A DNA stretch of 64,000 bases from a virus. Shown here piece after piece: positions 14,421 to 64,000 of this stretch. Under the pieces are notes generated by a model. That model saw only the letters and a list, made by a program, of their open reading frames with translations. It did no database searches and was not told where the DNA came from. How positions within the stretch are numbered: position 1 is the stretch's first letter; the number at the start of each line of letters is the position of its first letter. The translations under genes were made by a program, and so were the position numbers. Location: the IMG/VR virus record IMGVR_UViG_3300008117_007749, one strand, 5' to 3'.

Positions 14421-15131
14421 TTAAGATAACCAGATGTAGTGACCTCTATTGAATCCATCATGTTGCCACTCATCCCCTAAACAAACACTTATTAAATCAC
14501 ATAACTTATCTTTATTTAAAATTTCTGACAATTTTTCCTCTAATAAATCCTTTTTTACCAAATCATTAAATTTTATTTTGAGGTCATCAATTATGTCTAT
14601 CTCTCTTTCAGACATTTCATCAACAATATGTTCTATTATATTATGTTTAATAACTTCAAATTCTTCTTCTGAGTAAATAATTATATTCCAATCGTCATTC
14701 TTCCAATCTTCAATCTTAAATTTGTGTTTATCCGAATCTATAACATCAATTGCGCTTAAATTAGTATCAAAATAATCAGCTAAAATTTTCTCCATTTCTA
14801 TTCCAGCTTTATCTATACCCTTATAGAGACACTGCTTTAAATCTGATATTTTCCATTCGGTAGATTCTAATAAATTAAATGATTCAAATGTAATTACACC
14901 ATCTGATTCCATATGTTTTCTATCTTCTATAATATCTTTAAGAATTCTATCAGAACCAGAAATATCTTTTAATTTATTTCTTTCTAAAAATTTATTAAAT
15001 CTTTGACCACCTGGCTTAAGATAAGCACTTAATCTAGAAGGTCTAATTTTATGATTATCAATATAATCATCCACCAAACCATTAATTAATTGATAGTATT
15101 TATTTGCGTCTTCTCTATTATTAATTGACAT
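14421..15131 (-). CDS. Hypothetical protein with internal TFESF..LES motif
   Basis: 236 aa ORF overlapping the upstream gene. Confidence 0.6.
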   Translation of the reverse strand: MSINNREDANKYYQLINGLVDDYIDNHKIRPSRLSAYLKPGGQRFNKFLERNKLKDISGSDRILKDIIEDRKHMESDGVITFESFNLLESTEWKISDLKQCLYKGIDKAGIEMEKILADYFDTNLSAIDVIDSDKHKFKIEDWKNDDWNIIIYSEEEFEVIKHNIIEHIVDEMSEREIDIIDDLKIKFNDLVKKDLLEEKLSEILNKDKLCDLISVCLGDEWQHDGFNRGHYIWLS

Positions 15132-15429
15132 TTCCTTTATTTAATTTATATAAATCTATAAAGTCATCTTCATCTTTAGCTCTCTCGGATTCTAAATCCT
15201 GAAAATCATCTTCTTCTAGTCTATCACCAACAGTTTCATACCACTCGTCTTTACTTAACTCCTCAATTTCGTTAGATTGGCAAAATTTACAATCATTGGA
15301 TTCTTGATTAAGTTGTTTCCAAAGAGCATTACACTCATCACAATGATAATAAAGTGTTAAGTCAGCCTTTGATGCGACTGGTAGCGTTTGACTAAAATCA
15401 AAAGTTTCAAATTTCCTGATATACTTCAT
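15121..15429 (-). CDS. Zinc-ribbon protein with N-terminal CTS-like peptide
   Basis: MKYIRKFETF; CDEC...CKFC. Confidence 0.7.
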   Translation of the reverse strand: MKYIRKFETFDFSQTLPVASKADLTLYYHCDECNALWKQLNQESNDCKFCQSNEIEELSKDEWYETVGDRLEEDDFQDLESERAKDEDDFIDLYKLNKGNVN

Positions 15430-15505
15430 ACTATCTATATATAAATTTTATTTTTATTATTTTTTCATATTGAATTTAGAGAATGATATATTAATATATA
15501 ATTAC

Positions 15506-16408
15506 ATGAACTTAAAGCAATTAAAAGACTTTTATAATAAAAAACCTGTAGAATTTGTAATTAAAGAACATTATGATTTGATAGAGAATCAAGAGTTTAT
15601 TCCAAGATTTTCCTTAAAGAATGTAAAGGATATCAATAATATTCCAATTAATAAACCTATTAAATATTCAGATGATTTAATGTCAAAGGCGATAAAGTAT
15701 GGAATGATCTTTTTAATTAACTATAAGGGAGAAGAAGACAAACATTTTGCAGGTCACGAAAGAGTAATTTATCCAATGGTTTTAGGACGCTCATCAAAAG
15801 GCAAAACGTTACTAAGAGGATGGCATTTAAATGGATGGTCAGTATCTCAAAGAAGACATATAAATAAAATTTGGAGACTTTTTAGAACAGATAGAATACT
15901 TTCTATGACCTTTACAGGTTCTTTTTATAGATTACCTCCTTCTGGATATAATATGAATGATAAGGGAATGCGTGGTGGAATCATAACACGAGCTGACTTT
16001 AATGAGATTAGAAGAAACCAACAAAACTTAGTGAATCAAAATAAAATTCAAAATAGAGAAGAAGTGGAAATGGGAGCAGAGGAAAGAAAATTTGCTTCAA
16101 TTGTTGTTAAAGAAACCGGAACTCAATTAGATTTGAAAAATGCCTTAGAAAACTCCTATATTAATAACTTAAAAGATACAGAAGGACTGAGATTATCTTT
16201 TCTTAAAAGTGTATATGGAACTAAATATGTAGCGATTTTAGGAGCTCTCGGCCAACCAGGAAACACCGTAAAAGTTACTACAGATAAGAATCAAAATCTA
16301 GGAGTATTCAAAGTATTAGACTCAATAACAGGAAAAGTACTGAAAAGTATTAAAAATGTGAAGGGTAATTCAGTATATGATCTTTACCTTTTTGATAAGA
16401 AAGTATAA
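15506..16408 (+). CDS. WYL-domain protein
   Basis: INYKG...ERVIYP..LG...LLRGW...WRLFRTDRI is WYL-like; start moved to ATG 15506 after AATATATA. Confidence 0.65.
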   Translation: MNLKQLKDFYNKKPVEFVIKEHYDLIENQEFIPRFSLKNVKDINNIPINKPIKYSDDLMSKAIKYGMIFLINYKGEEDKHFAGHERVIYPMVLGRSSKGKTLLRGWHLNGWSVSQRRHINKIWRLFRTDRILSMTFTGSFYRLPPSGYNMNDKGMRGGIITRADFNEIRRNQQNLVNQNKIQNREEVEMGAEERKFASIVVKETGTQLDLKNALENSYINNLKDTEGLRLSFLKSVYGTKYVAILGALGQPGNTVKVTTDKNQNLGVFKVLDSITGKVLKSIKNVKGNSVYDLYLFDKKV

Positions 16409-16424
16409 ATTCATTTATAATTTT

Positions 16425-16432
16425 AATATATA
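16425..16432 (+). promoter_or_regulatory. Late-type promoter AATATATA, representative of more than 25 copies
   Basis: AATATATA-AATC-ATG; also at 15493, 17598, 35527, 40615, 44995, 50370, 51784, 56338, 57709, 60012, 61432, 63512 and upstream of most minus-strand transcription units. Confidence 0.75.
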
Positions 16433-16436
16433 AATC

Positions 16437-17591
16437 ATGTTAAAAAGATTTTCAAACTTTATAAGAGAAGAATTATGGATTGAAGACATGGATAAACCTT
16501 CAGTAGATACTCTAAAAAGAAATTTACTTTTTAGATTAAATGAGTATCGAACATTTATTCTATCAAACATCAATTATAATTTAACAACGAATAAAGTAGA
16601 GTATAAAGAATTCGAAACAATCGATATTAAAGTAATGATAAGAGAACTAACTAATGAATTTACAGAAGAAGTTGTTCAAGAATTAAACTTAGAAGCATTT
16701 TTAAGAAAATTAAATCAAATATTAGAACTTAAAAAAAGAAATACTAAAAGAAAAGTTAGAGAATCCTTTGATGACTACTACAAGTCAATAGAAGTAAGAA
16801 TTGACCAATTACATCAGACAGGAAAAACTGAAGATCATTTTGACCAATTTGAAGGAGAAGGTTCAATTTTAGGAAGAAGACAATATGAATCTGAAAAATA
16901 TCAATTACAGGTTGAACTATTAAAACTTCAAGAATGGGTTAAGGCAAACGGAAAAAAAGTAGCAATTGTATTTGAAGGTAGAGATGCCGCAGGTAAAGGA
17001 TCAACTATTAAAAGATTTGTTGAATATTTGGATCCAAAAGGATTTAAAGTTGTAGCACTAGGTGTTCCAACTGATGAGGAAAAAAACAATTGGTTCCAAA
17101 GATATGAGACACACTTGCCTAATTCAGGAGAAATAGTTTTCTTTGATAGAAGTTGGTACAATAGAGCAGTTGTTGAACCAGCTATGGGATATTGCACAGA
17201 AGAACAATATCAAGACTTTATGGATAAAGTTATAGATTGGGAAGAAAAACAAATCAGAAATGGTTTGATACTTATAAAATTCTGGTTCTCAATTACGCAA
17301 GATAAACAAATTAAAAGATTTGAATTAAGACAAAAATCACCACTTAAATATTGGAAGTTCTCTCCAAACGACGCAAAAGTATTAGACAAATGGGAAGTTA
17401 TTGGAAACTTTAAAAGACAGATGTTTCAACAAACTTCATCTAGATTGTCTCCTTGGGTTATTATTAACTCAAATGATAAAAAGATTGGTAGGTTAAACGC
17501 TATGAGATATGTTATATCTAAAGTAGACTATTCTGATAAAAATCCAGAAATGAGTAAATACTACCCTGAAGTAGTTAATATTCTGATTTAA
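16437..17591 (+). CDS. ppk2: Polyphosphate kinase 2 with ~150-aa N-terminal extension
   Basis: FEGRDAAGKG Walker A, FDRSWYNRA, KFWFSI, PLKYWKFSP, SPWVII. Confidence 0.95.
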   Translation: MLKRFSNFIREELWIEDMDKPSVDTLKRNLLFRLNEYRTFILSNINYNLTTNKVEYKEFETIDIKVMIRELTNEFTEEVVQELNLEAFLRKLNQILELKKRNTKRKVRESFDDYYKSIEVRIDQLHQTGKTEDHFDQFEGEGSILGRRQYESEKYQLQVELLKLQEWVKANGKKVAIVFEGRDAAGKGSTIKRFVEYLDPKGFKVVALGVPTDEEKNNWFQRYETHLPNSGEIVFFDRSWYNRAVVEPAMGYCTEEQYQDFMDKVIDWEEKQIRNGLILIKFWFSITQDKQIKRFELRQKSPLKYWKFSPNDAKVLDKWEVIGNFKRQMFQQTSSRLSPWVIINSNDKKIGRLNAMRYVISKVDYSDKNPEMSKYYPEVVNILI

Positions 17592-17624: not shown

Positions 17625-18356
17625 ATGAAAGTTATTCAAAAATTTGAAAGTTATATGTCTAGAGAAGAAATGTGTAGTGCTCTTTGCAGATGTGGATATA
17701 CTATGAGCGAACTCGAAGAATGTTCAAATCAAGAACTTGAAGAAATGTGTAGAGCAACAGAGGAAGAAAACTATATAAATAATAACACTATGACTCAGGA
17801 GAAGAAAGGAGAAAAATGGATTAAAGACGCTATCAAAAATCCAGGATCTTTAAGAAAATCTATGGACAAAAAAGAAGGAGAAAAAATTTCAAAGAAAGAA
17901 ATTGACTCCGAACTAGAGGCTCTAAAAGGAAAAGACAAAGATCCTAAGAAAAAAGGAGTACAAGGTCTTTCTAAAAATGATTTAGCAAAATACAGAAAAT
18001 TAAATTTAGCAAAAACACTTAAAGGACTAAAAGAACACCAGAATACACAAAATTATATGTTTTTTGGAAATTTAAAAACAATTAAAAGATTAGTTGATGA
18101 GATGTTAGAAATGGATGAATCTGAAGTTGATGCTAAATTATCAAATGGTCACAACTGGGCATTAGATCATATTGCAACATCTAAAGATGATATCGAGGAA
18201 GTATTCAATTTCTTAGCTGGTCACGATGTACCATCTGAAGACCAAGGACATCATCATTATGATGAACCATCACACGAAGAGACCGAGAGTCATTTGGCTA
18301 ATAAAGATTTAGAAGATGAAATGAAAAATATAAAAAGTTTTGGAAACTTTAAATAA
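17625..18356 (+). CDS. Putative internal head protein
   Basis: MKVIQKFESY N-terminus; WIKDAIKNPGSL module; NYMFF.NL...GHNWALDHI module; C-terminal IKSFGNF. Confidence 0.6.
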   Translation: MKVIQKFESYMSREEMCSALCRCGYTMSELEECSNQELEEMCRATEEENYINNNTMTQEKKGEKWIKDAIKNPGSLRKSMDKKEGEKISKKEIDSELEALKGKDKDPKKKGVQGLSKNDLAKYRKLNLAKTLKGLKEHQNTQNYMFFGNLKTIKRLVDEMLEMDESEVDAKLSNGHNWALDHIATSKDDIEEVFNFLAGHDVPSEDQGHHHYDEPSHEETESHLANKDLEDEMKNIKSFGNFK

Positions 18357-19645: not shown

Positions 19646-20126
19646 CCAAGATGAATTCGATAGGATTGGTAAAGTTAAAGAAACTAACGATAAATTAGAA
19701 GAGTTCTTTAATGACAAAAGATCCGAGTGGAACAAAAATGTAGAACCACTCTTTAAAATAATAAGAGTTGATTTAACCAATCCTTCCTCCGCGAAGGACA
19801 TAATGGAAGCTCAATCATCGGCTCTGTCTTATAGACAAGCAATCAGCGAACAAATTAATTTCTTCTTAAATAAACGCAGTAAAGAAACAACTAAGATTAA
19901 GAGACTTAGACAAGATAAATTTATATTTTATGCAACAGGATTTGGTGTTAAAACAAACCTAGGAGAAAAAGGAATCTTAATTGATGGCCATTTAGCTGAA
20001 AATGATAGAAGTCTTGAACTTATTGAATCTTATATCGAATTCTTAAGAGACACCACAAAGAATCTAGAAAGTTTAAGTTATTCAATTAAGAATATGATTG
20101 AATTGATGAATTATTTAGGTCGTTAA
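19632..20126 (+). CDS. uvsY: UvsY-like recombination mediator
   Basis: Helical; ...RQDKFIFYATG...E....I....IEFL.....L....YSIKNMIE matches the T4 UvsY pattern (LDYYSG...LDFC...GFAIKH). Confidence 0.65.
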   Translation: MNPYNQDEFDRIGKVKETNDKLEEFFNDKRSEWNKNVEPLFKIIRVDLTNPSSAKDIMEAQSSALSYRQAISEQINFFLNKRSKETTKIKRLRQDKFIFYATGFGVKTNLGEKGILIDGHLAENDRSLELIESYIEFLRDTTKNLESLSYSIKNMIELMNYLGR

Positions 20127-21241
20127 TCGACTTTTTTATTCCATTTAGTTTCGATACGCAGATCTTTTAGAGCTTGGTGACCTGATGAACATTCAGAACA
20201 TAACACTTTATCACCGTCCCAGTTTGTTGTGATAACATCACCTTCACAATCTTCACATCTTTCTCTTTCACCATAAACACTATGTAAGTAATAACAATTT
20301 TTGTCAGATAAATTAGACAAACTATCTTTATCTTTACTTAAAAAACACATAGTATCAACATAAGGATACATATTAAAGTCGCCTTTTAACTTTAATTTAA
20401 CTTCACCGGATACTTCTTCGCCTTTATAAATGAAACGAACGCTATCACTATCATGTGATGAAATAACTTTCTTATAAAACCAACCTTCTGTATCCGCAAA
20501 TTGTTTAAATCTATTAACATCCGAATCTCGGTTAGCATAAACTCTATCCATAAAGTATTTAGAATCACAAGGTGATTTTTTAACCTTCCAGACAAGAGCT
20601 CTTCCATGAATTTTATCATCAGAATCAACATAAATAAGAAGTTTTACTTTATCTGGATTTTCAGTATAAATCTTAAAAGTTCTTTTACCTTCATCTCTCA
20701 TACAAGAACTTCCTAAAGTTCCTTTTCGACTGTAATATTTATTTTCATCATAATATTTTGCAATATCTTCACCAGATACTAATTTGAATTGAATCGTTGA
20801 TACTTCCGTAGAAGCTTTCCAAGAATTTACAAAAGACTCTCTATCAGAATCACTCACGTTAATTCCTCTTAAAGAACAAATATAATTTACAATTTTACCA
20901 ATTTTTACCTCACCTCTGCCGGGCATTGTATAAGGAAAATTAGGATTATCATAAATTTCATCTTTTTTAGAATTTACCTTTGATTGATTTATAAACCCAA
21001 CCATATCTTCAGAATCAACTAAATCAAAATAGTTTTGTTTAATTTTATCATCTGGGAAATACTGCTCACTCTCTATTATATCTAATATTTGATCGGCAAT
21101 TTCACCTACTTTACCTGGTTGTTTTACTAATGATTTTAATTTAAATAAAAAATCAGTCGTGCTATAAACTCGACCTTCTAAAAGAGAAAAGATTTCAAAC
21201 TTTAGTTTTTCTAATATAAAACCATCGTATTTTGTTATCAT
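20123..21241 (-). CDS. Conserved phage protein (SCM..GRALxW..MDRxY..PYxDT family) with CTS-like N-terminus and C-terminal Zn finger
   Basis: GSSCMR, GRALVW, FMDRVY, PYVDT, CEDC..CSEC; MITKYDGFILE. Confidence 0.65.
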   Translation of the reverse strand: MITKYDGFILEKLKFEIFSLLEGRVYSTTDFLFKLKSLVKQPGKVGEIADQILDIIESEQYFPDDKIKQNYFDLVDSEDMVGFINQSKVNSKKDEIYDNPNFPYTMPGRGEVKIGKIVNYICSLRGINVSDSDRESFVNSWKASTEVSTIQFKLVSGEDIAKYYDENKYYSRKGTLGSSCMRDEGKRTFKIYTENPDKVKLLIYVDSDDKIHGRALVWKVKKSPCDSKYFMDRVYANRDSDVNRFKQFADTEGWFYKKVISSHDSDSVRFIYKGEEVSGEVKLKLKGDFNMYPYVDTMCFLSKDKDSLSNLSDKNCYYLHSVYGERERCEDCEGDVITTNWDGDKVLCSECSSGHQALKDLRIETKWNKKVD

Positions 21242-21631: not shown

Positions 21632-22330
21632 TTACTTCTTTCTTTTCTTCTTTCTTGCTTTAGCAGCTTTTGCTTTTGTCCATAAATCAGCGTCTGCTTT
21701 TCTTGCTCCACCAGCGCCAGTAATGAATGAATTAACTCTACCCATTCCCCATTGATGTTGAGCAACCCCTGGTCTATGACCAGCATTCCAAGCTTGCATT
21801 CCTTTAGAAAAAACTTTTCTTAAAATACCAACAGGAATTCCAGAAGCTTTTGATTTCTTTTTAAGAGAAGCGGTTACTCCAGACTTTTTAGATTCATCCA
21901 ATCCTTCTAATTCATCAGAAACACTACCATGTTTATTTATAGTATCGATAATTTGTTTAACAACATAAACTTCCAAATCCAACTCAATTGCAATTTGATC
22001 TTCAGTAAGACCCATTTCTAAAAGTTCTCTAACATCTTCCATATCAGCATGTGTAAAATCCTCAAATGTATAAGACTCGTAATAATCACCTTCTTCTTCC
22101 TCTCTTGGGTTGTAAGGTCCTCCTATCCAATTTTCATCACTAGTAGATTCTCTGTCTAATTCAGATATCCAATCTTCGGTTTCTAAGGAATGGAATAACT
22201 CCTCTAATTCATCATCAGTCATTGCCTCAAGTTCTTCTCTTTCGAATGTAGATGTTGAAGAAAGAGTCTCAATCATTTCTTCTCTATTTAATGGTTCTCT
22301 AAAACTCTCAAATGTTTTTAAGTATCTCAT
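21632..22330 (-). CDS. DUF5824-like protein with CTS-like N-terminus and a possible HTH
   Basis: True start MRYLKTFESF (22330); ILRKVFSKGMQAWNAGHRPGVAQHQWGMGRVNSF. Confidence 0.7.
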   Translation of the reverse strand: MRYLKTFESFREPLNREEMIETLSSTSTFEREELEAMTDDELEELFHSLETEDWISELDRESTSDENWIGGPYNPREEEEGDYYESYTFEDFTHADMEDVRELLEMGLTEDQIAIELDLEVYVVKQIIDTINKHGSVSDELEGLDESKKSGVTASLKKKSKASGIPVGILRKVFSKGMQAWNAGHRPGVAQHQWGMGRVNSFITGAGGARKADADLWTKAKAAKARKKKRKK

Positions 22331-22343: not shown

Positions 22344-22889
22344 TTATTTATTTCCAAACATTTTTTGGTATGCTTTAGTTGCTGCTGATTTTTTAGTTTT
22401 AACTCTTTTACCCTCACCTCCTTTACCAGACGAGTAATCAGCATCCCAGTCTTTTTTATACTCTTTTTTTCCTCTAAATGTGTCAATTTCTTTCTTCATT
22501 TTACCAGGATTTTTAGTTAAATATTTTCCTGGAATTTTACGGCCTTTATACTTTTGTGCTTTAACTCTTTCGGATATTCCCAAAATTCCTTGAATGTCTT
22601 TTTCAATAATATCTAGCCCTTCATCAATAGAATCCACATAAGTTTGAAAATCAGTAGTATCACCAACAAACTTTGCTACATACATTTGATCTATATCAAA
22701 TTCATACCTTATAGATAAATCATCTTTTGTAAAATTTACAACCACCTCGTGATCAGACTTATTTTCCCACTCATAAATGATACTATTATCAGAAAGACCA
22801 TCGATAAGGTCTTTTAATTCTTGCATCTTAGCATCAATAACATTGTCGCTATTTTCAATGAACTCTCTGAATAATTTTATTTTTTTCAT
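22344..22889 (-). CDS. Putative internal head protein with basic C-terminus
   Basis: MKKIKLFREFIE; KTKKSAATKAYQKMFG tail. Confidence 0.6.
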   Translation of the reverse strand: MKKIKLFREFIENSDNVIDAKMQELKDLIDGLSDNSIIYEWENKSDHEVVVNFTKDDLSIRYEFDIDQMYVAKFVGDTTDFQTYVDSIDEGLDIIEKDIQGILGISERVKAQKYKGRKIPGKYLTKNPGKMKKEIDTFRGKKEYKKDWDADYSSGKGGEGKRVKTKKSAATKAYQKMFGNK

Positions 22890-26319: not shown

Positions 26320-27014
26320 AAAACTTTATGATAAAGTAAATTAGATTTAGGAAAACTAAAGTATTCAGATGTAAATTGATGGTTATAGGTTTTATAAATA
26401 TAACACTCAAAATCATTGATAGCAACTAAATAGTTAGTAACAAGTTTTTTCAAATGACCTTTACATCGAATAAAGTCTCTAGTCTTACCCGTTGAGAAAT
26501 TATCTAAAGTTTTAATTTGAGCGGATTCAATACCTTGGTTTATTTTCCAAAATAAATCATAACCTTGTTCGTCTCTTTCTCTTTTTGGTTTAAAGGGATT
26601 AATTACAACACCAGTGGAGTCAAAATATTCAATTAAAACATCTTTAGCTTTTTCTTCTAAACTTCTACCACGATTATAAGAATTGGTCAATATTTTAATT
26701 ACTTTATCGAAATATTGACCATTTGGATGATATAGTTCGTTTTGATTTTTTGAAATCCACTCAACTAAATCAAAAATTGTATTTGAAGGCGAGATACTAT
26801 TAACATAATCAATTAGAAGTCTATTATTTTTTGATAATCTCAAAATTTCACCCCTAATTTTTAATCCATGATTACTTACAAAATAAGTATTTATATAACC
26901 CCACACGCTTCTACAAGCGAATATTAATGCTGTTCCAATTTCATCTTTTTCAATCTCTGTTAAAGGAGTTTGTAAAGACTCATAAAAACTAGACCATTTC
27001 TTTATTCGATTCAT
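26316..27014 (-). CDS. PD-(D/E)XK-like endonuclease with CTS-like N-terminus
   Basis: GRSLEE...DEQGYDLF...SAQIKT; MNRIKKWSSFYES. Confidence 0.55.
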   Translation of the reverse strand: MNRIKKWSSFYESLQTPLTEIEKDEIGTALIFACRSVWGYINTYFVSNHGLKIRGEILRLSKNNRLLIDYVNSISPSNTIFDLVEWISKNQNELYHPNGQYFDKVIKILTNSYNRGRSLEEKAKDVLIEYFDSTGVVINPFKPKRERDEQGYDLFWKINQGIESAQIKTLDNFSTGKTRDFIRCKGHLKKLVTNYLVAINDFECYIYKTYNHQFTSEYFSFPKSNLLYHKVF

Positions 27015-28222: not shown

Positions 28223-28717
28223 ATGATTAAAAGATATAATCAATTTGTAAAAGGTAAATTAAACGAAGATTTAGGAATGGAACCTGAATTAGAAGCTCCT
28301 GTAAGAGATCTACCGTCTTTAGGTGGAAGACCACCTATCAATCGACCATCCGAAATGGAAGCAGAGTTTGAAGGTGAAGAAGAAGAAGTAGCTACTGATA
28401 AATATGAAATAGCACTTCAAACTTTAGCAGATGCTGCTGGAGTTGATTTCACACCTGGTCAAAAATCAGTTGTAATTGATGGAAAAGAGGTAACATTTCC
28501 AGCAGAAACAGAAAAATATCATATCAAAGGTGTAAAAAAATATTTTACCACACCGGAAGATGTTTTAGCTAACTTAGGAAGTCAATCAACAGCTTCTGGA
28601 CAAAAACAAGAAGTCAAAGATGAAATGACATCTTTAAAAGATGAAGAAATTATCGACTCTGGCGAGCAATTTGAATCAAAAAGTTACAAAAGTACTAGAA
28701 GAAAAAACAAAAGATGA
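28223..28717 (+). CDS. Putative internal head protein
   Basis: MIKRYNQFVKGKLNE; acidic body, basic tail. Confidence 0.6.
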   Translation: MIKRYNQFVKGKLNEDLGMEPELEAPVRDLPSLGGRPPINRPSEMEAEFEGEEEEVATDKYEIALQTLADAAGVDFTPGQKSVVIDGKEVTFPAETEKYHIKGVKKYFTTPEDVLANLGSQSTASGQKQEVKDEMTSLKDEEIIDSGEQFESKSYKSTRRKNKR

Positions 28718-55086: not shown

Positions 55087-55668
55087 ATGATATTTATCAA
55101 ACTATTTGAAGAATTTAATCAAGAATTAGGAAATTTAATAGACATTCTTAAAAAGTATGATGTACCAGTTGATTTATGGGGAACAGGTAAATCTAAAACA
55201 ATACAACATCTACTTAAAGAGTTACAAGGAAATGAGTGTAGCATACAAGAAGAAGGAGAATCAATTACAAGATATATTGAATTTGTTGGAATAAAAATAT
55301 ACTACACTGATAAAGATGATCAAAGATGGTTTCTTAAGGAAGAAAAACAAGAATTTAATGACGGTAGAGTAAGAAGGAGAAATATTCCAAGTTCAGTTTC
55401 TGAAAAAATGAAATTTGGAGAGAATCCATCTTTAGCAGCTATTAGGGGAATTGAGGAAGAATTAGGTGTGAAAATAAATCAATCTCAACTATCAAAACAT
55501 TCCGACTTAAACTATGACGGTGGATCTGTTTCTTATCCAGGACTTGACACAAAATACAAAGGACATAGATTTATATGCAATTTTAATGATACTCAATTTG
55601 ATCCAAACGGATATATTGAAGTTCAAGAAGATAAGAAAACATTTTTTGTCTGGACTAAGCTCAATTAA
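55087..55668 (+). CDS. Nudix-like hydrolase with CTS-like N-terminus
   Basis: EKMKFGENPSLAAIRGIEEELG (degenerate Nudix box); MIFIKLFEEFNQE. Confidence 0.7.
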   Translation: MIFIKLFEEFNQELGNLIDILKKYDVPVDLWGTGKSKTIQHLLKELQGNECSIQEEGESITRYIEFVGIKIYYTDKDDQRWFLKEEKQEFNDGRVRRRNIPSSVSEKMKFGENPSLAAIRGIEEELGVKINQSQLSKHSDLNYDGGSVSYPGLDTKYKGHRFICNFNDTQFDPNGYIEVQEDKKTFFVWTKLN

Positions 55669-56349: not shown

Positions 56350-57048
56350 ATGAGATTACTTATTTTCTTATTAATTTCATTTAATTTATTATCACAAACT
56401 GAAATTAAATTAGATAACAATTTTACCGGAATTTTATCCACTAATAAAACAACAACGTTTGGTTTTAATTATGTAGGCAATAACTCTATAGATTTTAAAA
56501 AAATATCTTATGATTTTTCAACAAACTATTCCACAAGATTCTCTCCAAATCTTAAAGAAAACGAATTTAACCAAAGGCAAAATATTGGATATGAAAAAGA
56601 AAAATGGGATTTATTTATTACACATCAATATAACTATTCACTAATTAGACAAATTAACTCTGATAATTGGCTTGGTGTAGGTGGTGGATTAAAATTTAAA
56701 TATAATTGGGGTAAAATATCTTTATCATATGCGACAATTTATCAAAGTTCAAATTATTTTGTAAATGAATCTGAATATTTATTTAGACATTCATTAAGAA
56801 CAAAAATTAAATATGAAAAAAAGAACATATCTTTTTACTCCGAATACTTCTTTCAACCTAATGTATCAAATTTTGATGATATCATTATATATGGAAATAG
56901 TAAGATAAGTCTTCTTCTTAATAAATCTTTAAGTTTCATAATTCAAGATGTTGTCAATTGGAGAAGCACATCAGATGTTAAATTAATTCACAATTTAAGT
57001 TTAGGAATCGGTTATAAATTTAATAAAGTAATTAAAAAGAAAGATTAA
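56350..57048 (+). CDS. Outer-membrane beta-barrel-like protein (DUF481-like)
   Basis: Signal peptide, alternating aromatic beta strands, EYFFQPN, C-terminal LSLGIGYKF. Confidence 0.65.
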   Translation: MRLLIFLLISFNLLSQTEIKLDNNFTGILSTNKTTTFGFNYVGNNSIDFKKISYDFSTNYSTRFSPNLKENEFNQRQNIGYEKEKWDLFITHQYNYSLIRQINSDNWLGVGGGLKFKYNWGKISLSYATIYQSSNYFVNESEYLFRHSLRTKIKYEKKNISFYSEYFFQPNVSNFDDIIIYGNSKISLLLNKSLSFIIQDVVNWRSTSDVKLIHNLSLGIGYKFNKVIKKKD

Positions 57049-57662
57049 GCAAATTTATCCGTAAACCAACTCGAGAAGTTCTTTAACCATTGAGGTTTCC
57101 AAGAATCTTTCTTAGATTGATTCTTTGAATAGATATCATTTTGAACACTGCTCATCAAAAAAGCCAACTGCCATCCCGAACCATCACTAGCAACAAGAGC
57201 TGATTGACTCATTCCATCTAAGAGTGACCAAGTTGATTCTTGTTTTACTCTACTTTTAGCATCTTCTAATGAGATACTTTCCAAATTTAACTTTTCAATA
57301 ATATCATAAGGAACTTTGGCTTCTAATTTCCATTCATGTCCGTCAAAGTGACCCTTAGATCTTTTAACTAAAGAATCATCAGGTGTCCAAAATTCATAAA
57401 CATATTTAATAACTTTATCACCTGGTTTATAAGAACACCAAAAGTCTTGAGCATTTACCTCCTGATCTTTAAGTTTTTTACCACCTTCAACAGAGTTTTT
57501 AACTGTTTCTAAAAAAAAATTTAGAATCAAAGACTTTTCCTCATTCTCAGTAGAAAACCAAAATGTCTCTTCATCTTTTTCAGAATCACTAGTAGCCGCT
57601 GGTAGTTTATATTCTTTTCCTTCATTGATAGAAAATTTATCAAAATTTTTAATATTTTTCAT
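57045..57662 (-). CDS. Putative internal head protein
   Basis: MKNIKNFDKFSINE. Confidence 0.6.
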   Translation of the reverse strand: MKNIKNFDKFSINEGKEYKLPAATSDSEKDEETFWFSTENEEKSLILNFFLETVKNSVEGGKKLKDQEVNAQDFWCSYKPGDKVIKYVYEFWTPDDSLVKRSKGHFDGHEWKLEAKVPYDIIEKLNLESISLEDAKSRVKQESTWSLLDGMSQSALVASDGSGWQLAFLMSSVQNDIYSKNQSKKDSWKPQWLKNFSSWFTDKFA

Positions 57663-57736: not shown

Positions 57737-58303
57737 ATGAAATACATTAGAACATTTGAAAGTTTCTCTATCAATGAAAACGCATCATATGAAGGTGTTT
57801 ACGATATAGTAAGATCAGAGGTAAGTAAAATGACAGAAGATCAGAAAAAAGGTCTTTTAGACGAAGCTCAAAGAATAGCTGACAAATTAGGTGTTCCATT
57901 AGAAAAAATGGCTGATCCGGAATTTGCAACTAAAGCGATGATTGAAGAATCTGAAAAAGCTGGTATTCCTGTAGAGGAAGGAGCTTTTGGTGATGCTTGG
58001 GAATGGTTAAAAACAAGATCTGCAGGATTCTACAGAACTTTAAGTAGAGTTTTAGGAGTTGGTGGATTTTTAGCAAGTGCTGCTACGGCTATTACTGGTA
58101 TTGTTTGTGGTACTCCTGAAAGAGAAGCATTTACTCTTTGGGTAAGAGATTTAACTGGTATCGGTGAATTAGATAGAGGAACACAAGCAATTTTATGTAT
58201 GTCTGGTCTTATTGGTATAATTCTTTCATTTGTAGTTGGCGGTACTTTATCACACAAAGCAGACGAAGTTGAAAGAGAACAAAAATACGGAACTAAATTC
58301 TAA
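57737..58303 (+). CDS. CTS-bearing two-TM protein
   Basis: MKYIRTFESFSINE; two Gly-rich hydrophobic helices. Confidence 0.65.
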   Translation: MKYIRTFESFSINENASYEGVYDIVRSEVSKMTEDQKKGLLDEAQRIADKLGVPLEKMADPEFATKAMIEESEKAGIPVEEGAFGDAWEWLKTRSAGFYRTLSRVLGVGGFLASAATAITGIVCGTPEREAFTLWVRDLTGIGELDRGTQAILCMSGLIGIILSFVVGGTLSHKADEVEREQKYGTKF

Positions 58304-60042: not shown

Positions 60043-60471
60043 ATGAAATATCTAAAAACATTTGAAAGTTTTTCACCAATTAATGAGGAGGAAGAAGGAT
60101 TTTTTGGGGATATGGGAAAAAAATTGAGTAAATTTTTTTTAGGTGATGTGGTTGAAAATCACTTAAAAGCAATCATGTATATATCCAAAAAAGATGAAAA
60201 TGAGGTAAGAAAAGTAATTGAGCAGATTAAATCAGAAAAAGAATTATCTAAAAGAGAAGAACTCCTTAAAAGTTTGATTGGAGATTATGATGATTCGAAA
60301 GTCATGGAAGATCTGATTAGAATCTTTTCTATATACAAAGAAGACGGTGTACGTCTTTCGCAAAGTGCATTACGATATGAGTTGGATTGCATGACACCGG
60401 AAGAGAAAGAGGATTATGAATCTATAAAAGGTGGAAATACTGGATGGGAAGGTTCCAGAGGATTTCATTAA
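60043..60471 (+). CDS. Putative internal head protein
   Basis: MKYLKTFESFSPINEE. Confidence 0.65.
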   Translation: MKYLKTFESFSPINEEEEGFFGDMGKKLSKFFLGDVVENHLKAIMYISKKDENEVRKVIEQIKSEKELSKREELLKSLIGDYDDSKVMEDLIRIFSIYKEDGVRLSQSALRYELDCMTPEEKEDYESIKGGNTGWEGSRGFH

Positions 60472-61464: not shown

Positions 61465-62058
61465 ATGAGATATCTAAAAGCATACGAAAATTTTAACTAC
61501 GAACCAACAAATGAAGAATTCTTTGGTGGTTTGTTTAGTGCTCAAACTAGAAATCAATATATCAAAGAAGGATATGATAAGATTTCTAAGTTACTACAAA
61601 CTGATACAGCATTACAATCTAAACTTGAAGAAATTTATAATGAAGCTGAACAATCAGGAAATTTACCATCTCAACAAGATGTACAAAAACTACAAGATGT
61701 AGTTGGGGGTAGAGCAGAAGAAAAAGTTGAAGAGTTAGAAGACGCTGTAAAAGATGAGACTGTTCAAGAAAATATGTTTTCAAACATTATTGAAAAGATT
61801 AAAAAAGTACTTTCTTGGGTATTTAACTTTGGAAAACAAACACTTTGGTTAGTTGGTAGTTTAGCATCTATGTTTTTTGCTGGAACAGAAGCAATGGGAG
61901 CTAGAGTAATTCTTAGCGGTGAAGCACAGGGTAACTTATCATACTCTTGGTACGGACTTTTAATGTTAATTGGTGGATTTATTTCTCTTATATTATGGAT
62001 AGTAGATAAACATATGAAGGGTTCAGGACAAGGACCTTTATTTGGTAGAAAAGAATAA
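61465..62058 (+). CDS. CTS-bearing two-TM protein
   Basis: MRYLKAYENFNYEPTNEE; two C-terminal hydrophobic helices. Confidence 0.65.
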   Translation: MRYLKAYENFNYEPTNEEFFGGLFSAQTRNQYIKEGYDKISKLLQTDTALQSKLEEIYNEAEQSGNLPSQQDVQKLQDVVGGRAEEKVEELEDAVKDETVQENMFSNIIEKIKKVLSWVFNFGKQTLWLVGSLASMFFAGTEAMGARVILSGEAQGNLSYSWYGLLMLIGGFISLILWIVDKHMKGSGQGPLFGRKE

Positions 62059-62092: not shown

Positions 62093-62191
62093 ATGCAAAA
62101 TAATAAAGGGGTAAATAAATATCCCATATATAGTAACAGTGTAAAAATATTTTTGAACAGATTCACTTCTGTATCAAAAAAAAAATTTCTT

Positions 62192-63028
62192 ATGAGAAAC
62201 ACAAAAACTTACAACGAGCTCGTACAAAAGATGCGAGCATTTTTTTTGCAAAAAGGATTTATTGAAGTCCCGACACAATCAAGATTATCAATCTTAGCAG
62301 CGTGTGAAAATCCACATTCAATTACAACTTTTAATTACAGTGGTGAGATATGGCCTCTTCCACAAACAGGACAAATGTGGCTTGAGCACGAATTATTACA
62401 AAATCCAGAATGGCCAGGATGCTTCTGTATATCAACATCCTACAGACAAGAGAAAAATCCTATTCCCGGAAGACATGAATTAATCTTTCCAATGTTCGAG
62501 TTTGAATCAAAAGGAGGAATGAAAGAATTACTTAAATTAGAATCAGAACTTTTATCACATTTAGGATTTGACCAACCAGTTGAAGTAAATTATAATGACG
62601 TATGTGAAGAATACGGAGGAGTTGAAATATTAGAGGATGAGCACGAACAAAGAATGTGGAATGAAAAAAGTTCGATTGTATCACTTCAAAATTTTCCAAG
62701 AAGAACAAATCCATTCTGGAATATGCAACACAATAATGGTGAAATCTTTAACAAAGTAGATGTTATTCTTTATGGCCAAGAAACAATTGGATCCGCTGAA
62801 AGAAGCTGCGATGTCGAAAAGATGAAAGAGATGTTCTACACAATTGAAGACGGCAAATACTCCGCTAAATTATTTGAATTATTTGGCAAAGAAAGAGTTG
62901 AAAAGGAACTTGAAACATTCTTAAAATATGATTTCTTTCCAAGATTTGGAGGAGGAATCGGAATGACAAGACTTGCAAGAGCATATGAGATGATGTTACA
63001 AGAAAAAGAGGTTGAAGAACTAGTATAA
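62192..63028 (+). CDS. Class IIb aminoacyl-tRNA synthetase catalytic-core paralog without anticodon-binding domain (AsnRS2/archaeal-type asparagine synthetase-like)
   Basis: GFIEVPT (motif 1), SYRQE...GRH...FPMFEFE (motif 2), GQETIGSAER, FGGGIGMTRL (motif 3); probable start MRNTKTY. Confidence 0.85.
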   Translation: MRNTKTYNELVQKMRAFFLQKGFIEVPTQSRLSILAACENPHSITTFNYSGEIWPLPQTGQMWLEHELLQNPEWPGCFCISTSYRQEKNPIPGRHELIFPMFEFESKGGMKELLKLESELLSHLGFDQPVEVNYNDVCEEYGGVEILEDEHEQRMWNEKSSIVSLQNFPRRTNPFWNMQHNNGEIFNKVDVILYGQETIGSAERSCDVEKMKEMFYTIEDGKYSAKLFELFGKERVEKELETFLKYDFFPRFGGGIGMTRLARAYEMMLQEKEVEELV

Positions 63029-63060
63029 AAAAGAGGGAAGTGAAAACTTCCCTTTTATTT
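63026..63060 (+). terminator. Intrinsic terminator
   Basis: agggaagt-gaaa-acttccct followed by ttt. Confidence 0.8.
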
Positions 63061-63087
63061 TTTATATAAAGGTCTAAATTTATTATT

Positions 63088-63495
63088 ATGAAAAAGATTA
63101 TCTTACCACTATTATTAACAATACCTACACTTATATTCTCTCAAAATTATAAAGAATTGGATAGCGTGAGTGCTGGAAATATTTACTTCTCTACAAACAA
63201 AAAAATTTATATAACCGAGTATTTAACAGAACCTGAAAGTCGTTTCGTTTTTTTTGTAAAAGATATTACCGATTATAACTATTTTTATTTTCAATCAAAA
63301 AATGAAATTGTAGGACTTATTTCTATGGTTATACGTTCTATTGAAAAACAAAAAGATGTTATCTACAATGGAAGTAAAGAATTCACCATTATATCAATCA
63401 CTAAAAATATTTCTAAAATTAAAGTTGGTGATTTTATATTTTCCATGGATAGAAGAACAGCTGAAGATATAATTAAACAGTTTCAGCAAATTTAA
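63088..63495 (+). CDS. Secreted/periplasmic hypothetical protein
   Basis: MKKIILPLLLTIPTLIFSQ signal peptide, cleavage before Gln as is common in Bacteroidota. Confidence 0.65.
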   Translation: MKKIILPLLLTIPTLIFSQNYKELDSVSAGNIYFSTNKKIYITEYLTEPESRFVFFVKDITDYNYFYFQSKNEIVGLISMVIRSIEKQKDVIYNGSKEFTIISITKNISKIKVGDFIFSMDRRTAEDIIKQFQQI

Positions 63496-63523
63496 ATAGT
63501 TTATAGAGTTTAATATATACTCT

Positions 63524-64000
63524 ATGAAACATCTTAAAAAATTTTTTGAGTCATTAGATATTTCTAAAGAAGAAATTTTAGAAAACTTTCTTTACATAAC
63601 CGATAAATTTGGTGATCCAGACGTTTACAATTCACCATACGGTAAATCAAAAAAATGGACAATTTCTTGGAATATTAAATTAGACCTTTCTGTTATGCAA
63701 GAAGCTGAACAACTAATAAGTAAATTAAAAGACTTAACAGAAGATATTGATGATGTATTAGCAGCTGGTGACAGATTGGAAGACTTTACTATAAATATGA
63801 GTTTATCAAATACCCTCCGTTTAGAATTAATTCCAAAAGATACTGGAGACGATACTTACAAATTCATATCTCATTATGAATGGCGACAACTTTATGTTAG
63901 AATAAATGAAGTTGAAAGATTTTTCAATGCAAGAGGAATAAGAATTGAAAAAATTGATAATGAAAGTATGTATAGAGAAGGTGATGATGAAAATGAATTG
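63524..64000 (+). CDS. CTS-bearing hypothetical protein, 3' truncated by window
   Basis: AATATATA-CTCT-ATG; MKHLKKFFESLDISKEEILENF..., frame appears open to window end. Confidence 0.7.
   Translation, partial: MKHLKKFFESLDISKEEILENFLYITDKFGDPDVYNSPYGKSKKWTISWNIKLDLSVMQEAEQLISKLKDLTEDIDDVLAAGDRLEDFTINMSLSNTLRLELIPKDTGDDTYKFISHYEWRQLYVRINEVERFFNARGIRIEKIDNESMYREGDDENEL

What the first reader, a model, noticed from the sequence alone, without database searches (positions are those of the whole stretch)
15121..64000. Large family of unrelated proteins carrying a T4-CTS-like N-terminal peptide: a candidate packaged and injected cargo system
Seen in the sequence: about 18 otherwise unrelated ORFs start with the same peptide. 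They are MKYIRKFETF (15429-), MNLKQLKDFY (15506+), MLKRFSNFIREE (ppk2), MKVIQKFESY (17625), MITKYDGFILE (21241-), MRYLKTFESFREPLN (22330-), MKKIKLFREFIE (22889-), MNRIKKWSSFYES (27014-), MKHLMRYEGY (27690), MIKRYNQFVKGKLNE (28223), MIKKFNQFIKE (32264-), MNIKDYRLFL..INEE (51796), MIFIKLFEEFNQE (55087), MKNIKNFDKFSINE (57662-), MKYIRTFESFSINE (57737), MKYLKTFESFSPINEE (60043), MRYLKAYENF..TNEE (61465) and MKHLKKFFES (63524). Replication, tail and early genes largely lack it. Established: T4 internal proteins are packaged through a ~10-aa capsid targeting sequence (IPIII MKTYQEFIAE) that the gp21 prohead protease removes after (I/L)xE. Inference: this phage uses the tag modularly to load a PPK2, a HAD phosphatase, a DHH phosphoesterase, a Nudix, a WYL protein, a PD-(D/E)XK nuclease, DNA-binding proteins and membrane proteins into the head for delivery at infection. 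That is far beyond T4's few internal proteins.
Basis: partly seen in the sequence, partly recalled or inferred. Interest (0 to 1): 0.9.

Follow-up and report, generated by a model that had tools for sequence, protein, structure and literature searches.

The report
Shared head-loading leader on megaphage proteins
Many unrelated proteins of this uncultured giant phage of Bacteroidota begin with the same 10-14-residue peptide, which most likely acts like phage T4's capsid-targeting sequence (load into the head, then trim) but on roughly one gene in eight; virion packaging has not been tested.

Summary
Of the 18 claimed ORFs, 11 carry the canonical leader M-K-[YH]-[IL]-[KR]-x-[FY]-E-S-F. Five carry a shorter or shifted form, and two are weak. 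Their bodies are unrelated to each other.

In a 642-kb relative (LR756502.1), 133 of 997 ORFs start with the leader, against 4 of 3,536 internal Met positions. Synonymous codons vary freely, so selection acts on the peptide. The leader is rare in cellular genomes.

The capsid-targeting reading is supported only indirectly:
- Every complete genome with the leader has a T4-type capsid protein, and the two relatives examined also have a T4-type head protease fused to a scaffold.
- The leader often ends in [LIV]-N-E. The same I-N-E is invariant in the capsid-protein propeptide (78/78).
- The scaffold repeats share the core [FY]xx[FY][LI]xE with T4's YQEFIAE.
- Tagged genes share the TATATA promoter box with fibre genes. 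They encode soluble proteins, none with a replication or tail domain.
- Cultured relative phage PAU has its own version (MKTLTKLYEAKLNEA) on 18 ORFs, 12 in its head module. Two of those are annotated "internal capsid protein" and one "scaffolding".

No proteomics exist for this clade, and injection into the host is inference. This scan has noted similar leaders on other huge-phage DNA and elsewhere in this genome.

The parts
15121..15429 (-). 102-aa Cys-rich small protein, canonical leader MKYIRKFETF
   Evidence: Matrix score 14.5, p 0.0009. TATATA box ends 8 nt before the ATG. LR756502.1 orthologue starts MQYIKKFEDL.
15506..16408 (+). 300-aa protein with a doubtful, one-residue-shifted leader MNLKQLKDFY
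   Evidence: Scores only with a register shift (p 0.0015). The orthologue has no leader at its called start. No Pfam hit.
16437..17591 (+). PPK2 polyphosphate kinase with about 120 extra N-terminal residues, starting with the short leader MLKRFSNFIREE
   Evidence: Pfam PPK2 9e-79, residues 147-369. Residues 146-373 match residues 25-253 of solved PPK2 chains. Orthologue starts MINNFIKFINEE. Box ends 4 nt before the ATG.
17625..18356 (+). 243-aa protein, canonical leader MKVIQKFESY
   Evidence: Score 7.4, p 0.0009. Box 19 nt upstream.
18324..18356 (+). Leader-like MKNIKSFGNFK at the C-terminus of the preceding ORF; read as the remnant of a lost gene's start
   Evidence: Six-frame scan. It resembles the N-terminus MENIKSFDSFNEKK of the LR756502.1 orthologue of ORF 17625-18356 itself, which aligns only from residue 64 of the window protein.
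20123..21241 (-). 372-aa protein with a weak short-form leader MITKYDGFILE
   Evidence: Matrix p 0.2, but it fits [FY]xxF[ILV]xE. Box 7 nt upstream.
21632..22330 (-). 232-aa DUF5824 protein, canonical leader MRYLKTFESFREPLNREE
   Evidence: Score 21.5, p below 0.0003. Pfam DUF5824 2.8e-13.
22344..22889 (-). 181-aa protein, leader MKKIKLFREFIEN
   Evidence: Score 12.8, p 0.0009. Box 5 nt upstream.
26316..27014 (-). 232-aa protein with a marginal leader MNRIKKWSSFYES
   Evidence: Score 0.8, p 0.003. Box 5 nt upstream.
27690..28184 (+). 164-aa DUF6576 protein, canonical leader MKHLMRYEGY (start taken at the second in-frame ATG)
   Evidence: Score 18.0. The orthologue's first 10 residues are identical. 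Pfam DUF6576.
28223..28717 (+). 164-aa acidic protein, short leader MIKRYNQFVKGKLNED
   Evidence: L-N-E at residues 13-15. Orthologue starts MAIIKKYNQYIKKINED.
31194..32264 (-). 356-aa protein, short leader MIKKFNQFIKES, then ..YYAFDWDDN
   Evidence: Fits [FY]xxF[ILV]xE. Orthologue starts MDILRFDQFIRES. No Pfam or PDB sequence hit.
51796..54018 (+). 740-aa DHH-like phosphoesterase, expanded leader MNIKDYRLFLGLESDEPINEEVGL
   Evidence: Pfam DHH 6e-5, below cut-off. The orthologue starts MLRKYGQFINEEVGF, so the INEE boundary is conserved. Box 4 nt upstream.
53974..54018 (+). Leader-like KRVIAKFESFNNSKL at the C-terminus of the DHH ORF; probable gene-start remnant
   Evidence: Score 15.7 in the six-frame scan. 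Absent from the orthologue's C-terminus.
55087..55668 (+). 193-aa Nudix-like protein, degenerate leader MIFIKLFEEFNQE
   Evidence: Score 12.5. The orthologue has the canonical MKHLKLYEYFSSNE. Nudix E 0.005, below cut-off.
57045..57662 (-). 205-aa protein, leader MKNIKNFDKFSINEG
   Evidence: Score 9.0, p 0.0009. I-N-E at residues 12-14. Box 4 nt upstream.
57737..58303 (+). 188-aa protein, leader MKYIRTFESFSINENAS, with two hydrophobic segments near the C-terminus
   Evidence: Score 20.6. SINENA is the same hexapeptide as in the clade's capsid propeptide ..HSINENAY... TM-like segments at residues 105 and 148.
60043..60471 (+). 142-aa helical protein, leader MKYLKTFESFSPINEEEE
   Evidence: Score 23.0. 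The first 18 residues are invariant or nearly so in 27 homologues that are 27-90% identical overall. AlphaFold2: residues 1-32 pLDDT below 50, body block means about 70-92.
61465..62058 (+). 197-aa protein, leader MRYLKAYENFNYEPTNEE, with one C-terminal hydrophobic segment
   Evidence: Score 16.3. TM-like segment at residue 161.
63524..64000 (+). ORF running off the window end, leader MKHLKKFFES
   Evidence: Score 16.9. Box 4 nt upstream.

Best explanation
The peptide is a lineage-specific version of the T4-type capsid (prohead-core) targeting leader. It is a short N-terminal linear motif: M-K-x-[LI]-x-x-[FY], often extended to ..F-[LIV]-N-E.

Proposed mechanism:
1. The leader docks a late-made soluble protein onto the scaffold core of the assembling head.
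2. Where the leader ends in [LIV]-x-E, the T4-type (S77) head protease cuts it off.
3. The body stays inside the capsid and leaves with the DNA at infection.

Shown here: the motif, its strictly N-terminal position, peptide-level selection, its modular attachment to unrelated bodies, its promoter class, the T4-type head machinery in related genomes, and the match between the leader's end and the capsid-protein propeptide.

Inferred only: docking to the scaffold, cleavage, presence in virions, and injection.
For: 1. Statistics. In LR756502.1, 133/997 ORF starts carry the leader against 4/3,536 internal Met positions. A nucleotide pattern gave 84 hits in that genome and 69 in LR745206.1, against 0-2 in reversed controls. 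The same kind of pattern found more than 118 viral contigs but only 27, mostly spurious, hits in 596 Gb of cellular genomes.

2. Peptide-level selection. Synonymous codon use inside the leader matches genome usage. Ser AGY/TCN is 31/69 against 28/72, and both Leu codon families are used.

3. Linear-motif behaviour. The first 18 residues are invariant or nearly so in 27 homologues that are 27-90% identical overall, yet AlphaFold2 leaves residues 1-32 unstructured (pLDDT below 50) beside a mostly confident body.

4. T4-type head machinery. The gp23-family capsid protein is present in 18/29 large contigs with the leader, and in 5/5 of those at least 90% complete. The S77/phrog_207 head protease is fused to a scaffold. 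A gp55-like late sigma factor lies beside the head genes.

5. Shared cleavage-type motif. H-[SQA]-I-N-E-N is invariant in 78/78 capsid propeptides, and its Glu is the last one before the conserved core. [ILV]NE[NEGASK] is 4.6-fold enriched in the first 24 residues of LR756502.1 ORFs and about 47-fold in positions 11-30 of viral-contig leaders. Window ORF 57737 carries SINENA, as the capsid propeptide does.

6. Shared core with the scaffold. The scaffold domain has 12 tandem 14-residue repeats, NIxYSEYIAENLDK. Their core [YH]xxY[LI]xE has the same pattern as T4's YQEFIAE and the leader's FESF[LIV]NE. In T4, targeting maps to residues 4 and 7 and processing to residues 8 and 10 (PMC9026906).

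7. Expression class. In LR756502.1 the WWTATATA box lies upstream of 73/133 tagged against 195/864 untagged genes (p 1e-13), and the host-type TAnnTTTG box upstream of 3/133 against 86/864. In the window the figures are 16/18 against 21/55, and the fibre genes share the box.

8. Cargo character. Hydrophobic segments occur in 3/133 tagged against 132/864 untagged proteins. No replication or tail domain was found among 126 tagged ORFs scanned against Pfam.

9. Gene position. In smaller T4-like relatives with only two leaders per contig, one tagged small acidic ORF sits between portal and protease. That is where T4 has its core proteins gp67 and gp68.

10. Cultured relatives in the same capsid-protein clade.
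- Phage PAU has MK[TS][LI][ST]xL[YF]E[SA]KLNE[AS] on 18 ORFs, with 0 in the control.
- Twelve of the 18 lie in its head module, p 6e-9.
- They include gp142 and gp154, annotated 'internal capsid protein', and gp152, annotated 'scaffolding'.
- PAU's capsid protein carries ..WGAKLNES.
- Phage MA9V-1 has MKTFTCFINEA on the ORF between portal and protease, MKNFFSFINEA on a second ORF, and ..WSEFINEA in its capsid propeptide.
Against: - No virion proteomics, N-terminal sequencing or expression data exist for this clade. PAU's 'internal capsid protein' labels are record annotations whose basis I could not read.
- Thirteen per cent of all ORFs is far more than any known capsid cargo set defined by a short tag.
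- Only 27% of independent leaders have [LIVM]-N-E at positions 11-13. In some families, such as an NT5C nucleotidase, the leader abuts the first strand of the fold with no Glu.
- Generic [ILVM]xE is only 1.2-1.3-fold enriched at N-termini.
- Tagged genes are not enriched near the head genes in megaphages: 22/596 ORFs within 10 kb of the capsid gene.
- Tagged proteins are acidic (median pI 5.1), unlike what I recall of T4's internal proteins (basic; from memory).
- A few have hydrophobic or signal-like segments.
- The window's own head module lies outside the window and could not be fetched.
- Similar 'bold readings' elsewhere in this scan were later priced low.
Confidence: 0.6

Rival explanations
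1. The leader is a docking or address motif for something other than the capsid. Candidates are a phage-made compartment or assembly factory, a chaperone, a modifying enzyme that recognises the leader, or an oligomerisation partner. On this view its likeness to T4's sequence reflects only the general look of short amphipathic helices.
For: - The motif behaves as a linear partner-binding peptide: invariant but unstructured.
- It sits on 13% of ORFs.
- It is not clustered near head genes in megaphages.
- Many leaders lack a cleavage site.
- Elsewhere in this scan a supposed capsid tag turned out to track a radical-SAM enzyme (finding e1-127136).
Against: - No candidate receptor or enzyme was identified.
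- The leader's end matches the capsid propeptide in three lineages: megaphages, PAU and MA9V-1.
- In PAU, 12/18 leader genes lie in the head module, including annotated internal capsid proteins and the scaffold.
Confidence: 0.2
2. The leader is an N-terminal degradation signal. It would mark a large set of phage proteins for timed turnover by ClpP, which the phage encodes, working with a host or phage unfoldase.
For: - The window encodes a bona fide ClpP at 32779-33441 (1e-66).
- ClpP is encoded in 21/32 leader-bearing genomes, with three copies in LR756502.1.
- From memory, one class of ClpX N-terminal signals begins Met-basic-hydrophobic.
Against: - Two complete genomes with 18-29 leaders each (G026, G027) encode no ClpP, whereas the T4-type capsid protein is present in 5/5 complete genomes.
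- The idea does not explain the [LIV]-N-E ending shared with the capsid propeptide.
- It does not explain the head-module location in PAU and in the smaller T4-like relatives.
Confidence: 0.07
3. The leader is part of an expression cassette: a late promoter a few bases before the ATG, plus a start region favourable for translating leaderless mRNA. It would spread by duplication and recombination, and the peptide itself would have no targeting role.
For: - In 65 of the 73 tagged genes that have the box, it ends 4-8 nt before the ATG, a leaderless-like spacing.
- About 40 of the 133 tagged ORFs are one paralogous family in tandem arrays.
- Two gene-start remnants are fused to upstream ORFs in the window.
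- The phage encodes IF3 and a peptide deformylase.
Against: - Synonymous sites in the leader are as free as in the rest of the genome, including use of both Ser and both Leu codon families.
- Conservation reaches residues 10-14 and holds at amino-acid level across contigs.
- Many untagged genes have the same leaderless-like spacing.
- Tagged proteins are strongly depleted in membrane proteins, which an expression signal would not predict.
Confidence: 0.1
4. The pattern is a chance or compositional artefact of AT-rich N-termini.
For: Lys, Ile, Phe, Tyr, Asn and Glu codons are all AT-rich, and the genome is about 30% G+C.
Against: - 133/997 N-termini against 4/3,536 internal Met positions.
- Reversed-pattern controls gave 0-2 hits against 15-84.
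- AT-rich relatives such as PTm1, Lak-B5 and T4 have 0-1 hits.
Confidence: 0.01

Closest known systems
Capsid targeting sequence (CTS) of phage T4 internal proteins IPII and IPIII (MKTYQEFIAE; IPI has a related propeptide), removed by the gp21 prohead protease
   Same: - An N-terminal peptide of 10-14 residues starting M-K.
- Hydrophobic or aromatic residues at positions 4 and 7, which are the T4 targeting determinants.
- It is followed by an (L/I)-x-E site.
- It is attached to unrelated bodies.
- Relatives of the window phage, and all complete leader-bearing genomes checked, have a gp23-type capsid protein; the two examined in detail also have an S77 protease and a scaffold.
- The short window form, [KR]-[FY]-x-x-F-I-x-E, matches T4's Y-Q-E-F-I-A-E at every mapped position.
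   Different: - The sequence is not alignably homologous to T4's.
- The canonical form is three residues longer and prefers x-N-E.
- It is present on about 13% of ORFs, whereas I confirmed two exact copies of the T4 sequence in the T4 genome.
- The bodies are mostly acidic.
- Many leaders lack a cleavage site.
- Packaging and cleavage are untested.
Leader-bearing head-module proteins of Sphingomonas (Sphingobacterium) phage PAU, including gp142 and gp154 ('internal capsid protein') and gp152 ('scaffolding')
   Same: - Same capsid-protein clade (26% identity to the megaphage capsid protein).
- Same 14-residue architecture, M-K-x-[LI]-x-x-[LF]-...-[LI]-N-E.
- The leader's end recurs in the capsid propeptide.
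   Different: - The consensus differs: MKTLTKLYEAKLNEA.
- It is on only 18 ORFs, mostly inside the head module.
- I found no paper in the searched library that describes it.
- I could not read the basis of the record's annotations.
Propeptides of head and ejection proteins of giant phages phiKZ, 201phi2-1 and SPN3US, cut by gp21-like proteases at S/A-x-E
   Same: Tens of head-internal proteins per virion, including paralogous families. They are processed after Glu by a T4-related protease (PMC9026906).
   Different: As far as the review cited here (PMC9026906) describes them, those propeptides have no short shared N-terminal address. The head lineage and cleavage motif also differ.
Mobile promoter cassettes of T4-type phages (promoter-early stem-loops; recalled from memory, not checked here)
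   Same: A promoter-proximal element recurs in front of many unrelated small genes in variable regions.
   Different: Those are conserved as DNA and lie outside the coding sequence. Here conservation is at the amino-acid level, with free synonymous sites.

Membership tests
T4-type capsid targeting sequence / gp21-processed N-terminal propeptide | Located at the extreme N-terminus, about 10 residues, on otherwise unrelated proteins | tested here: met
   The top matrix hits all lie directly after the initiator Met. The bodies are unrelated.
T4-type capsid targeting sequence / gp21-processed N-terminal propeptide | Targeting determinants: hydrophobic or aromatic residues at positions 4 and 7 (PMC9026906) | tested here: met
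   Position 4 is L/I/F in all 89 independent leaders. Position 7 was fixed as F by the search pattern in that set; in LR756502.1, where it was free, it is mostly F or Y.
T4-type capsid targeting sequence / gp21-processed N-terminal propeptide | An (L/I)-x-E protease site at the end of the tag | tested here: inconclusive
   [LIVM]-N-E at positions 11-13 in 24/89 leaders, and [LIVM]xE within positions 11-20 in 48/89. x-N-E is 4.6- to 47-fold enriched, but generic [ILVM]xE only 1.2- to 1.3-fold. Some families have no Glu after the leader.
T4-type capsid targeting sequence / gp21-processed N-terminal propeptide | The same genome encodes a gp23-type capsid protein, a gp21 (S77) prohead protease and a scaffold core | tested here: inconclusive
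   Met in the relatives: LR756502.1 and G015, and for gp23 in 5/5 complete leader-bearing genomes.
T4-type capsid targeting sequence / gp21-processed N-terminal propeptide | The tagged protein is found inside proheads or virions, and the tag is removed there | not testable with these tools
   No proteomics exist for this clade. The only link is the PAU record's 'internal capsid protein' labels.
T4-type capsid targeting sequence / gp21-processed N-terminal propeptide | The tag alone suffices to package a foreign protein | not testable with these tools
   This needs an experiment.
Sec, Tat or lipoprotein signal peptide | A hydrophobic core region of 7 or more residues after a short basic N-region | tested here: not met
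   The leader is amphipathic and charged (MKHLKTFESFLNE). Only 3/133 tagged proteins have any hydrophobic 19-mer, against 132/864 untagged.
ClpXP N-terminal degradation signal | Co-occurrence with the (phage) ClpP that would act on it | tested here: not met
   The complete genomes G026 and G027 carry 18-29 leaders but no ClpP. Use of the host's ClpP cannot be excluded.
RNA-level start-region element (translational operator or enhancer) | Conservation of nucleotides, including synonymous positions | tested here: not met
   Synonymous codon use inside the leader equals genome usage, and both Ser and both Leu codon families are used.

The most novel reading that the evidence does not exclude
Bacteroidota megaphages would use one short, portable address peptide to load more than a hundred different proteins, about one gene in eight, into the capsid and deliver them with the DNA. 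The cargo would include enzymes such as PPK2, phosphoesterases, lysozyme, and SET and GNAT transferases. The injected proteome of uncultured giant phages could then be read directly from sequence, and the scaffold's 14-residue repeats would be the docking sites that the leader mimics.
Probability: 0.3. Interest if true: 0.9.

Novelty: new variant of a known kind. Interest (0 to 1): 0.72.

Why it matters
If the leader is a head-loading address, it gives three things.
1. A sequence-only way to list the proteins that uncultured giant phages carry into the cell, which are prime candidates for host take-over and counter-defence.
2. Evidence that the T4 capsid-targeting principle is old, lineage-specific in sequence, and can expand from a few genes (two exact copies of the T4 sequence; 18 leader ORFs in PAU) to more than 100 per genome.
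3. A testable model for how cargo binds the core, in which the leader imitates one scaffold repeat and shares the capsid propeptide's cleavage site.

PAU grows in culture, so it makes the question experimentally accessible.

Even if the capsid reading is wrong, a 10-14-residue peptide under strong selection on 13% of a phage's proteins is an unexplained sorting or recognition system. String searches of the paper library used here did not find it.

Tried and rejected
- **Chance or composition.** Rejected by the internal-Met null and the reversed-pattern controls.
- **RNA-level motif.** Rejected by synonymous-site analysis.
- **All tagged proteins are paralogues.** Rejected for the window. It is partly true in LR756502.1, where one family with a DILLDLxDDG motif accounts for about 40 of 133.
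- **That paralogue family derives from the small head-module protein of the smaller T4-like relatives.** An HMM without the leader did not find those proteins (E above 10), so I dropped the idea.
- **Functional C-terminal tags.** The two C-terminal copies look like remnants of gene starts.
- **ClpP degradation signal.** Weakened by two complete ClpP-less genomes that carry the leader.
- **Enrichment of tagged genes around the head module in megaphages.** Not found, 3.7%.
- **Searching for the window's own contig or head module.**
  - An exact 36-mer was not found in viral contigs.
  - No whole genome is held for this window.
  - The metagenome scan with the capsid protein returned 80 relatives, but none could be identified as the window's own contig.
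- **Cultured phage carrying the megaphage-type leader.** None found. PTm1, pT24, MA9V-1, MaF61, PAU, Lak-B5, T4, Pelagibacter Mosig, Melnitz and MED4-213 all gave 0-1 hits. Tagged families from viral contigs hit only the LR75xxxx megaphages or nothing.
- **Literature.** String searches for the motif, and for megaphage together with capsid targeting, found no description.
- **Word-based homologue search with the leader region.** It retrieved only one orthologous family.
- **Not run.** A profile search of the 1.84-billion-protein library: a 13-residue motif would not reach significance there.

Full report
**What the window is.** The window has 28-40% G+C and about 73 ORFs. They include collagen-like tail fibres, a baseplate and hub block, a UvsW helicase and a PolB fragment. 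They also include IF3, ClpP, FKBP, a peptide deformylase and a PPK2.
- The UvsW protein is 81% identical to those of two uncultured 635-642-kb phages, LR745206.1 and LR756502.1.
- Genomes above 634 kb in that study were assigned to the Mahaphage clade and predicted to infect Bacteroidetes (PMC7162821).
- No whole genome is held for the window, so I used LR756502.1 as a whole-genome proxy.

**Checking the observation.** A loose regex over all six frames gave 19 hits, 12 of them directly at ORF starts.
- I built a position matrix iteratively on LR756502.1 only. It marks 133 of 997 ORF starts, against 4 of 3,536 internal Met positions at the same threshold.
- Applied to the window, 11 of the 18 claimed ORFs are canonical at p of about 0.001 or better.
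- Four are a shorter form, M-[IL]-[KR]-[KR]-[FY]-x-x-F-[IV]-x-E. For three of them (PPK2, 28223, 32264-) the LR756502.1 orthologue keeps the same short form.
- Two are one-residue-shifted, and one is marginal.
- After trimming the leader, the 18 proteins are unrelated to each other.
- Fibre, baseplate, replication and translation-factor genes lack the leader.
- Only PPK2 is a firm functional call. DHH and Nudix are sub-threshold, and the HAD, WYL and nuclease labels got no support.

**How widespread it is.**
- A degenerate DNA pattern for the first ten residues hit more than 118 viral contigs of 4-676 kb.
- The same pattern hit only 27 places in 596 Gb of prokaryote genomes. Most of those are spurious; four look like phage contigs binned with Bacteroidota.
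- Counts per genome with a looser pattern are 84 and 69 in the two closest megaphages, 34 and 15 in two others, and 0-1 in T4, PTm1, pT24, MA9V-1, MaF61, PAU and Lak-B5. Reversed-pattern controls gave 0-2.
- In 89 independent leaders, the positions the pattern did not fix extend the consensus to MKH[IL]K[TL]FESF[LIV]NE[AKS]. [LIVM]-N-E occupies positions 11-13 in 27%.

**Peptide or RNA.** Synonymous codon use inside the leader matches the genome. Both serine codon families (31/69 against 28/72) and both leucine families are used, so selection acts on the peptide.
- In one family of 27 homologues that are 27-90% identical overall, the first 18 residues are invariant or nearly so.
- AlphaFold2 nevertheless leaves residues 1-32 below pLDDT 50, beside a helical body whose ten-residue block means run from about 70 to 92.
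- This is how a short linear motif read by a partner behaves.

**Evidence on the capsid-targeting reading.**
1. Head machinery.
   - LR756502.1 has a gp23-family capsid protein.
   - Upstream of it lies a 699-residue head-maturation protease fused to a scaffold (phrog_207, weak S77 match).
   - A gp55-like late sigma factor lies nearby.
   - Among large leader-bearing contigs, 18/29 have the gp23 family, including 5/5 that are at least 90% complete.
2. Capsid propeptide. In 78 of 78 capsid proteins of this clade the propeptide contains H-[SQA]-I-N-E-N. Its Glu is the last one before the conserved core. T4-type proteases cut after Glu at L/I-x-E (PMC9026906). Window ORF 57737 carries the same hexapeptide, SINENA.
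3. Scaffold repeats. The scaffold domain holds 12 tandem 14-residue repeats, NIxYSEYIAENLDK. Their core has the pattern of T4's YQEFIAE and of the leader's FESF[LIV]NE. No other protein in that genome has more than three such cores. T4's own scaffold protein gp22 starts MLKEQLIAE.
4. Promoters. The box WWTATATA is the most enriched upstream 8-mer. It precedes 55% of tagged against 23% of untagged genes, while the host-type TAnnTTTG box is depleted. In the window 16/18 tagged genes have the box, and so do the fibre genes.
5. Cargo character. Tagged proteins are soluble: 3/133 have hydrophobic segments against 132/864 untagged. Pfam hits among 126 of them are lysozyme, SET, GNAT, HNH, PQ-loop, a carbohydrate-binding module and DUFs, with no replication or tail domains.
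6. Gene position. In smaller T4-like relatives with only two leaders per contig, one tagged small acidic ORF lies between portal and protease. That is where T4 has its core proteins gp67 and gp68.

**The bridge to cultured phages.** The capsid-protein clade includes PAU, MA9V-1, PTm1, pT24, MaF61 and the Lak phages.
- PAU's host is in fact a Sphingobacterium (reference list of PMC10537231).
- PAU has its own 14-residue leader, MK[TS][LI][ST]xL[YF]E[SA]KLNE[AS], on 18 ORFs, with 0 in the control.
- Twelve of the 18 lie in the 100-121-kb head region, p 6e-9.
- They include gp142 and gp154, annotated 'internal capsid protein', and gp152, annotated 'scaffolding'.
- PAU's capsid protein begins ..KKWGAKLNES, the same AKLNE as the leaders.
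- MA9V-1 repeats the pattern with FINEA: on the ORF between portal and protease, on a second ORF, and in the capsid propeptide.
- So in three lineages the end of the leader co-varies with a motif in the capsid propeptide. I regard this as the strongest argument that both are read by the head protease.

**What argues against it.**
- There is no direct evidence of packaging or cleavage, and I could not read the basis of the PAU labels.
- One ORF in eight is a very large cargo set.
- Half or more of the leaders lack a clear site, and in an NT5C family the leader abuts the fold.
- Tagged genes are not enriched near head genes in megaphages (3.7%), although the NFACT-R gene just after the capsid gene is often tagged.
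- The proteins are acidic.
- About 40 of the 133 in LR756502.1 are one tandem paralogue family with a second shared motif.
- Similar leaders noted elsewhere in this scan had their bold readings priced low, and one turned out to track a radical-SAM enzyme.

**Rivals.**
- A non-capsid docking motif remains possible.
- A ClpP degradation signal is weakened because two complete leader-bearing genomes lack ClpP.
- An expression cassette is suggested by the box lying 4-8 nt before the ATG in 65 of 73 tagged genes that have it. It does not explain amino-acid-level conservation out to residue 14, nor the depletion of membrane proteins.
- Chance is excluded.

**Verdict.** The leader is real, widespread in uncultured Bacteroidota huge phages with T4-type heads, and was not found in the papers searched. 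The most likely function is prohead targeting with optional trimming (about 0.6). Delivery into the host is a further inference.

Noticed in passing
window 24103-24642, 32779-33441, 55712-56128, 59397-59960 (-), 62093-63028: The phage encodes a full IF3 (both domains), a bona fide ClpP (1e-66), an FKBP prolyl isomerase, a peptide deformylase (3e-47) and a class II aminoacyl-tRNA-synthetase-like protein. All lack the leader. IF3 is notable because many genes here look leaderless.
   Followed up: partly
window-wide; LR756502.1: There are two promoter-like classes. WWTATATA is 14-fold enriched upstream of genes and often ends only 4-8 nt before the ATG, which suggests leaderless mRNAs. The Bacteroidota host-type TAnnTTTG box precedes a different, mostly untagged gene set.
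   Followed up: partly
L005 10273-12372 (LR756502.1 225,272-227,371): The head protease is fused to a scaffold domain made of 12 exact-period 14-residue repeats, NIxYSEYIAENLDK. The number of [YH]xAE-type repeat cores counted varies from 5 to 12 among relatives, which suggests a possible ruler for capsid size.
   Followed up: partly
L178-L187 and L217-L296 (head modules of relatives): In the megaphage clade the gap between portal and protease is filled by 2-5 opposite-strand ORFs. One conserved family starts MILTREI.VKI.ESNY.YYE.LGY and may be an inserted mobile or endonuclease-like gene set.
   Followed up: no
LR756502.1 10-82 kb and 418-426 kb: There are long tandem arrays of small tagged paralogues (leader forms MKHLKKYNES and MKHLKTYKIFES). 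Many carry a second shared motif, xDILLDLxDDGF, at residues 20-45. That motif is found in 14 tagged ORFs but only 1 of 864 untagged.
   Followed up: partly
window 60043-60471 and homologues P0001-P0023: This family also ends in a conserved C-terminal motif, GGSTGWEGSRGFH, which AlphaFold2 leaves unstructured (pLDDT below 50).
   Followed up: no
L005 14254-14943; L226-L292, ORF just after the capsid gene: An NFACT-R (PF05670) RNA-binding-domain protein is encoded immediately downstream of the capsid gene. It carries the leader in several relatives. In LR756502.1 the leader-like stretch is internal, behind an extra N-terminal domain.
   Followed up: partly
L196-L216 (Methanobrevibacter MAG contigs): A 48-57-residue Methanobrevibacter ORF family starts MKYIKYFETFEEYESW behind a strong Shine-Dalgarno sequence. 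It looks like the leader by coincidence and is probably unrelated.
   Followed up: no
L188/L189 (T4 65,689-66,415): The two T4 copies of MKTYQEFIAE (presumably ipII and ipIII) are identical at all 30 nucleotides. The megaphage leaders, by contrast, differ freely at synonymous sites.
   Followed up: no
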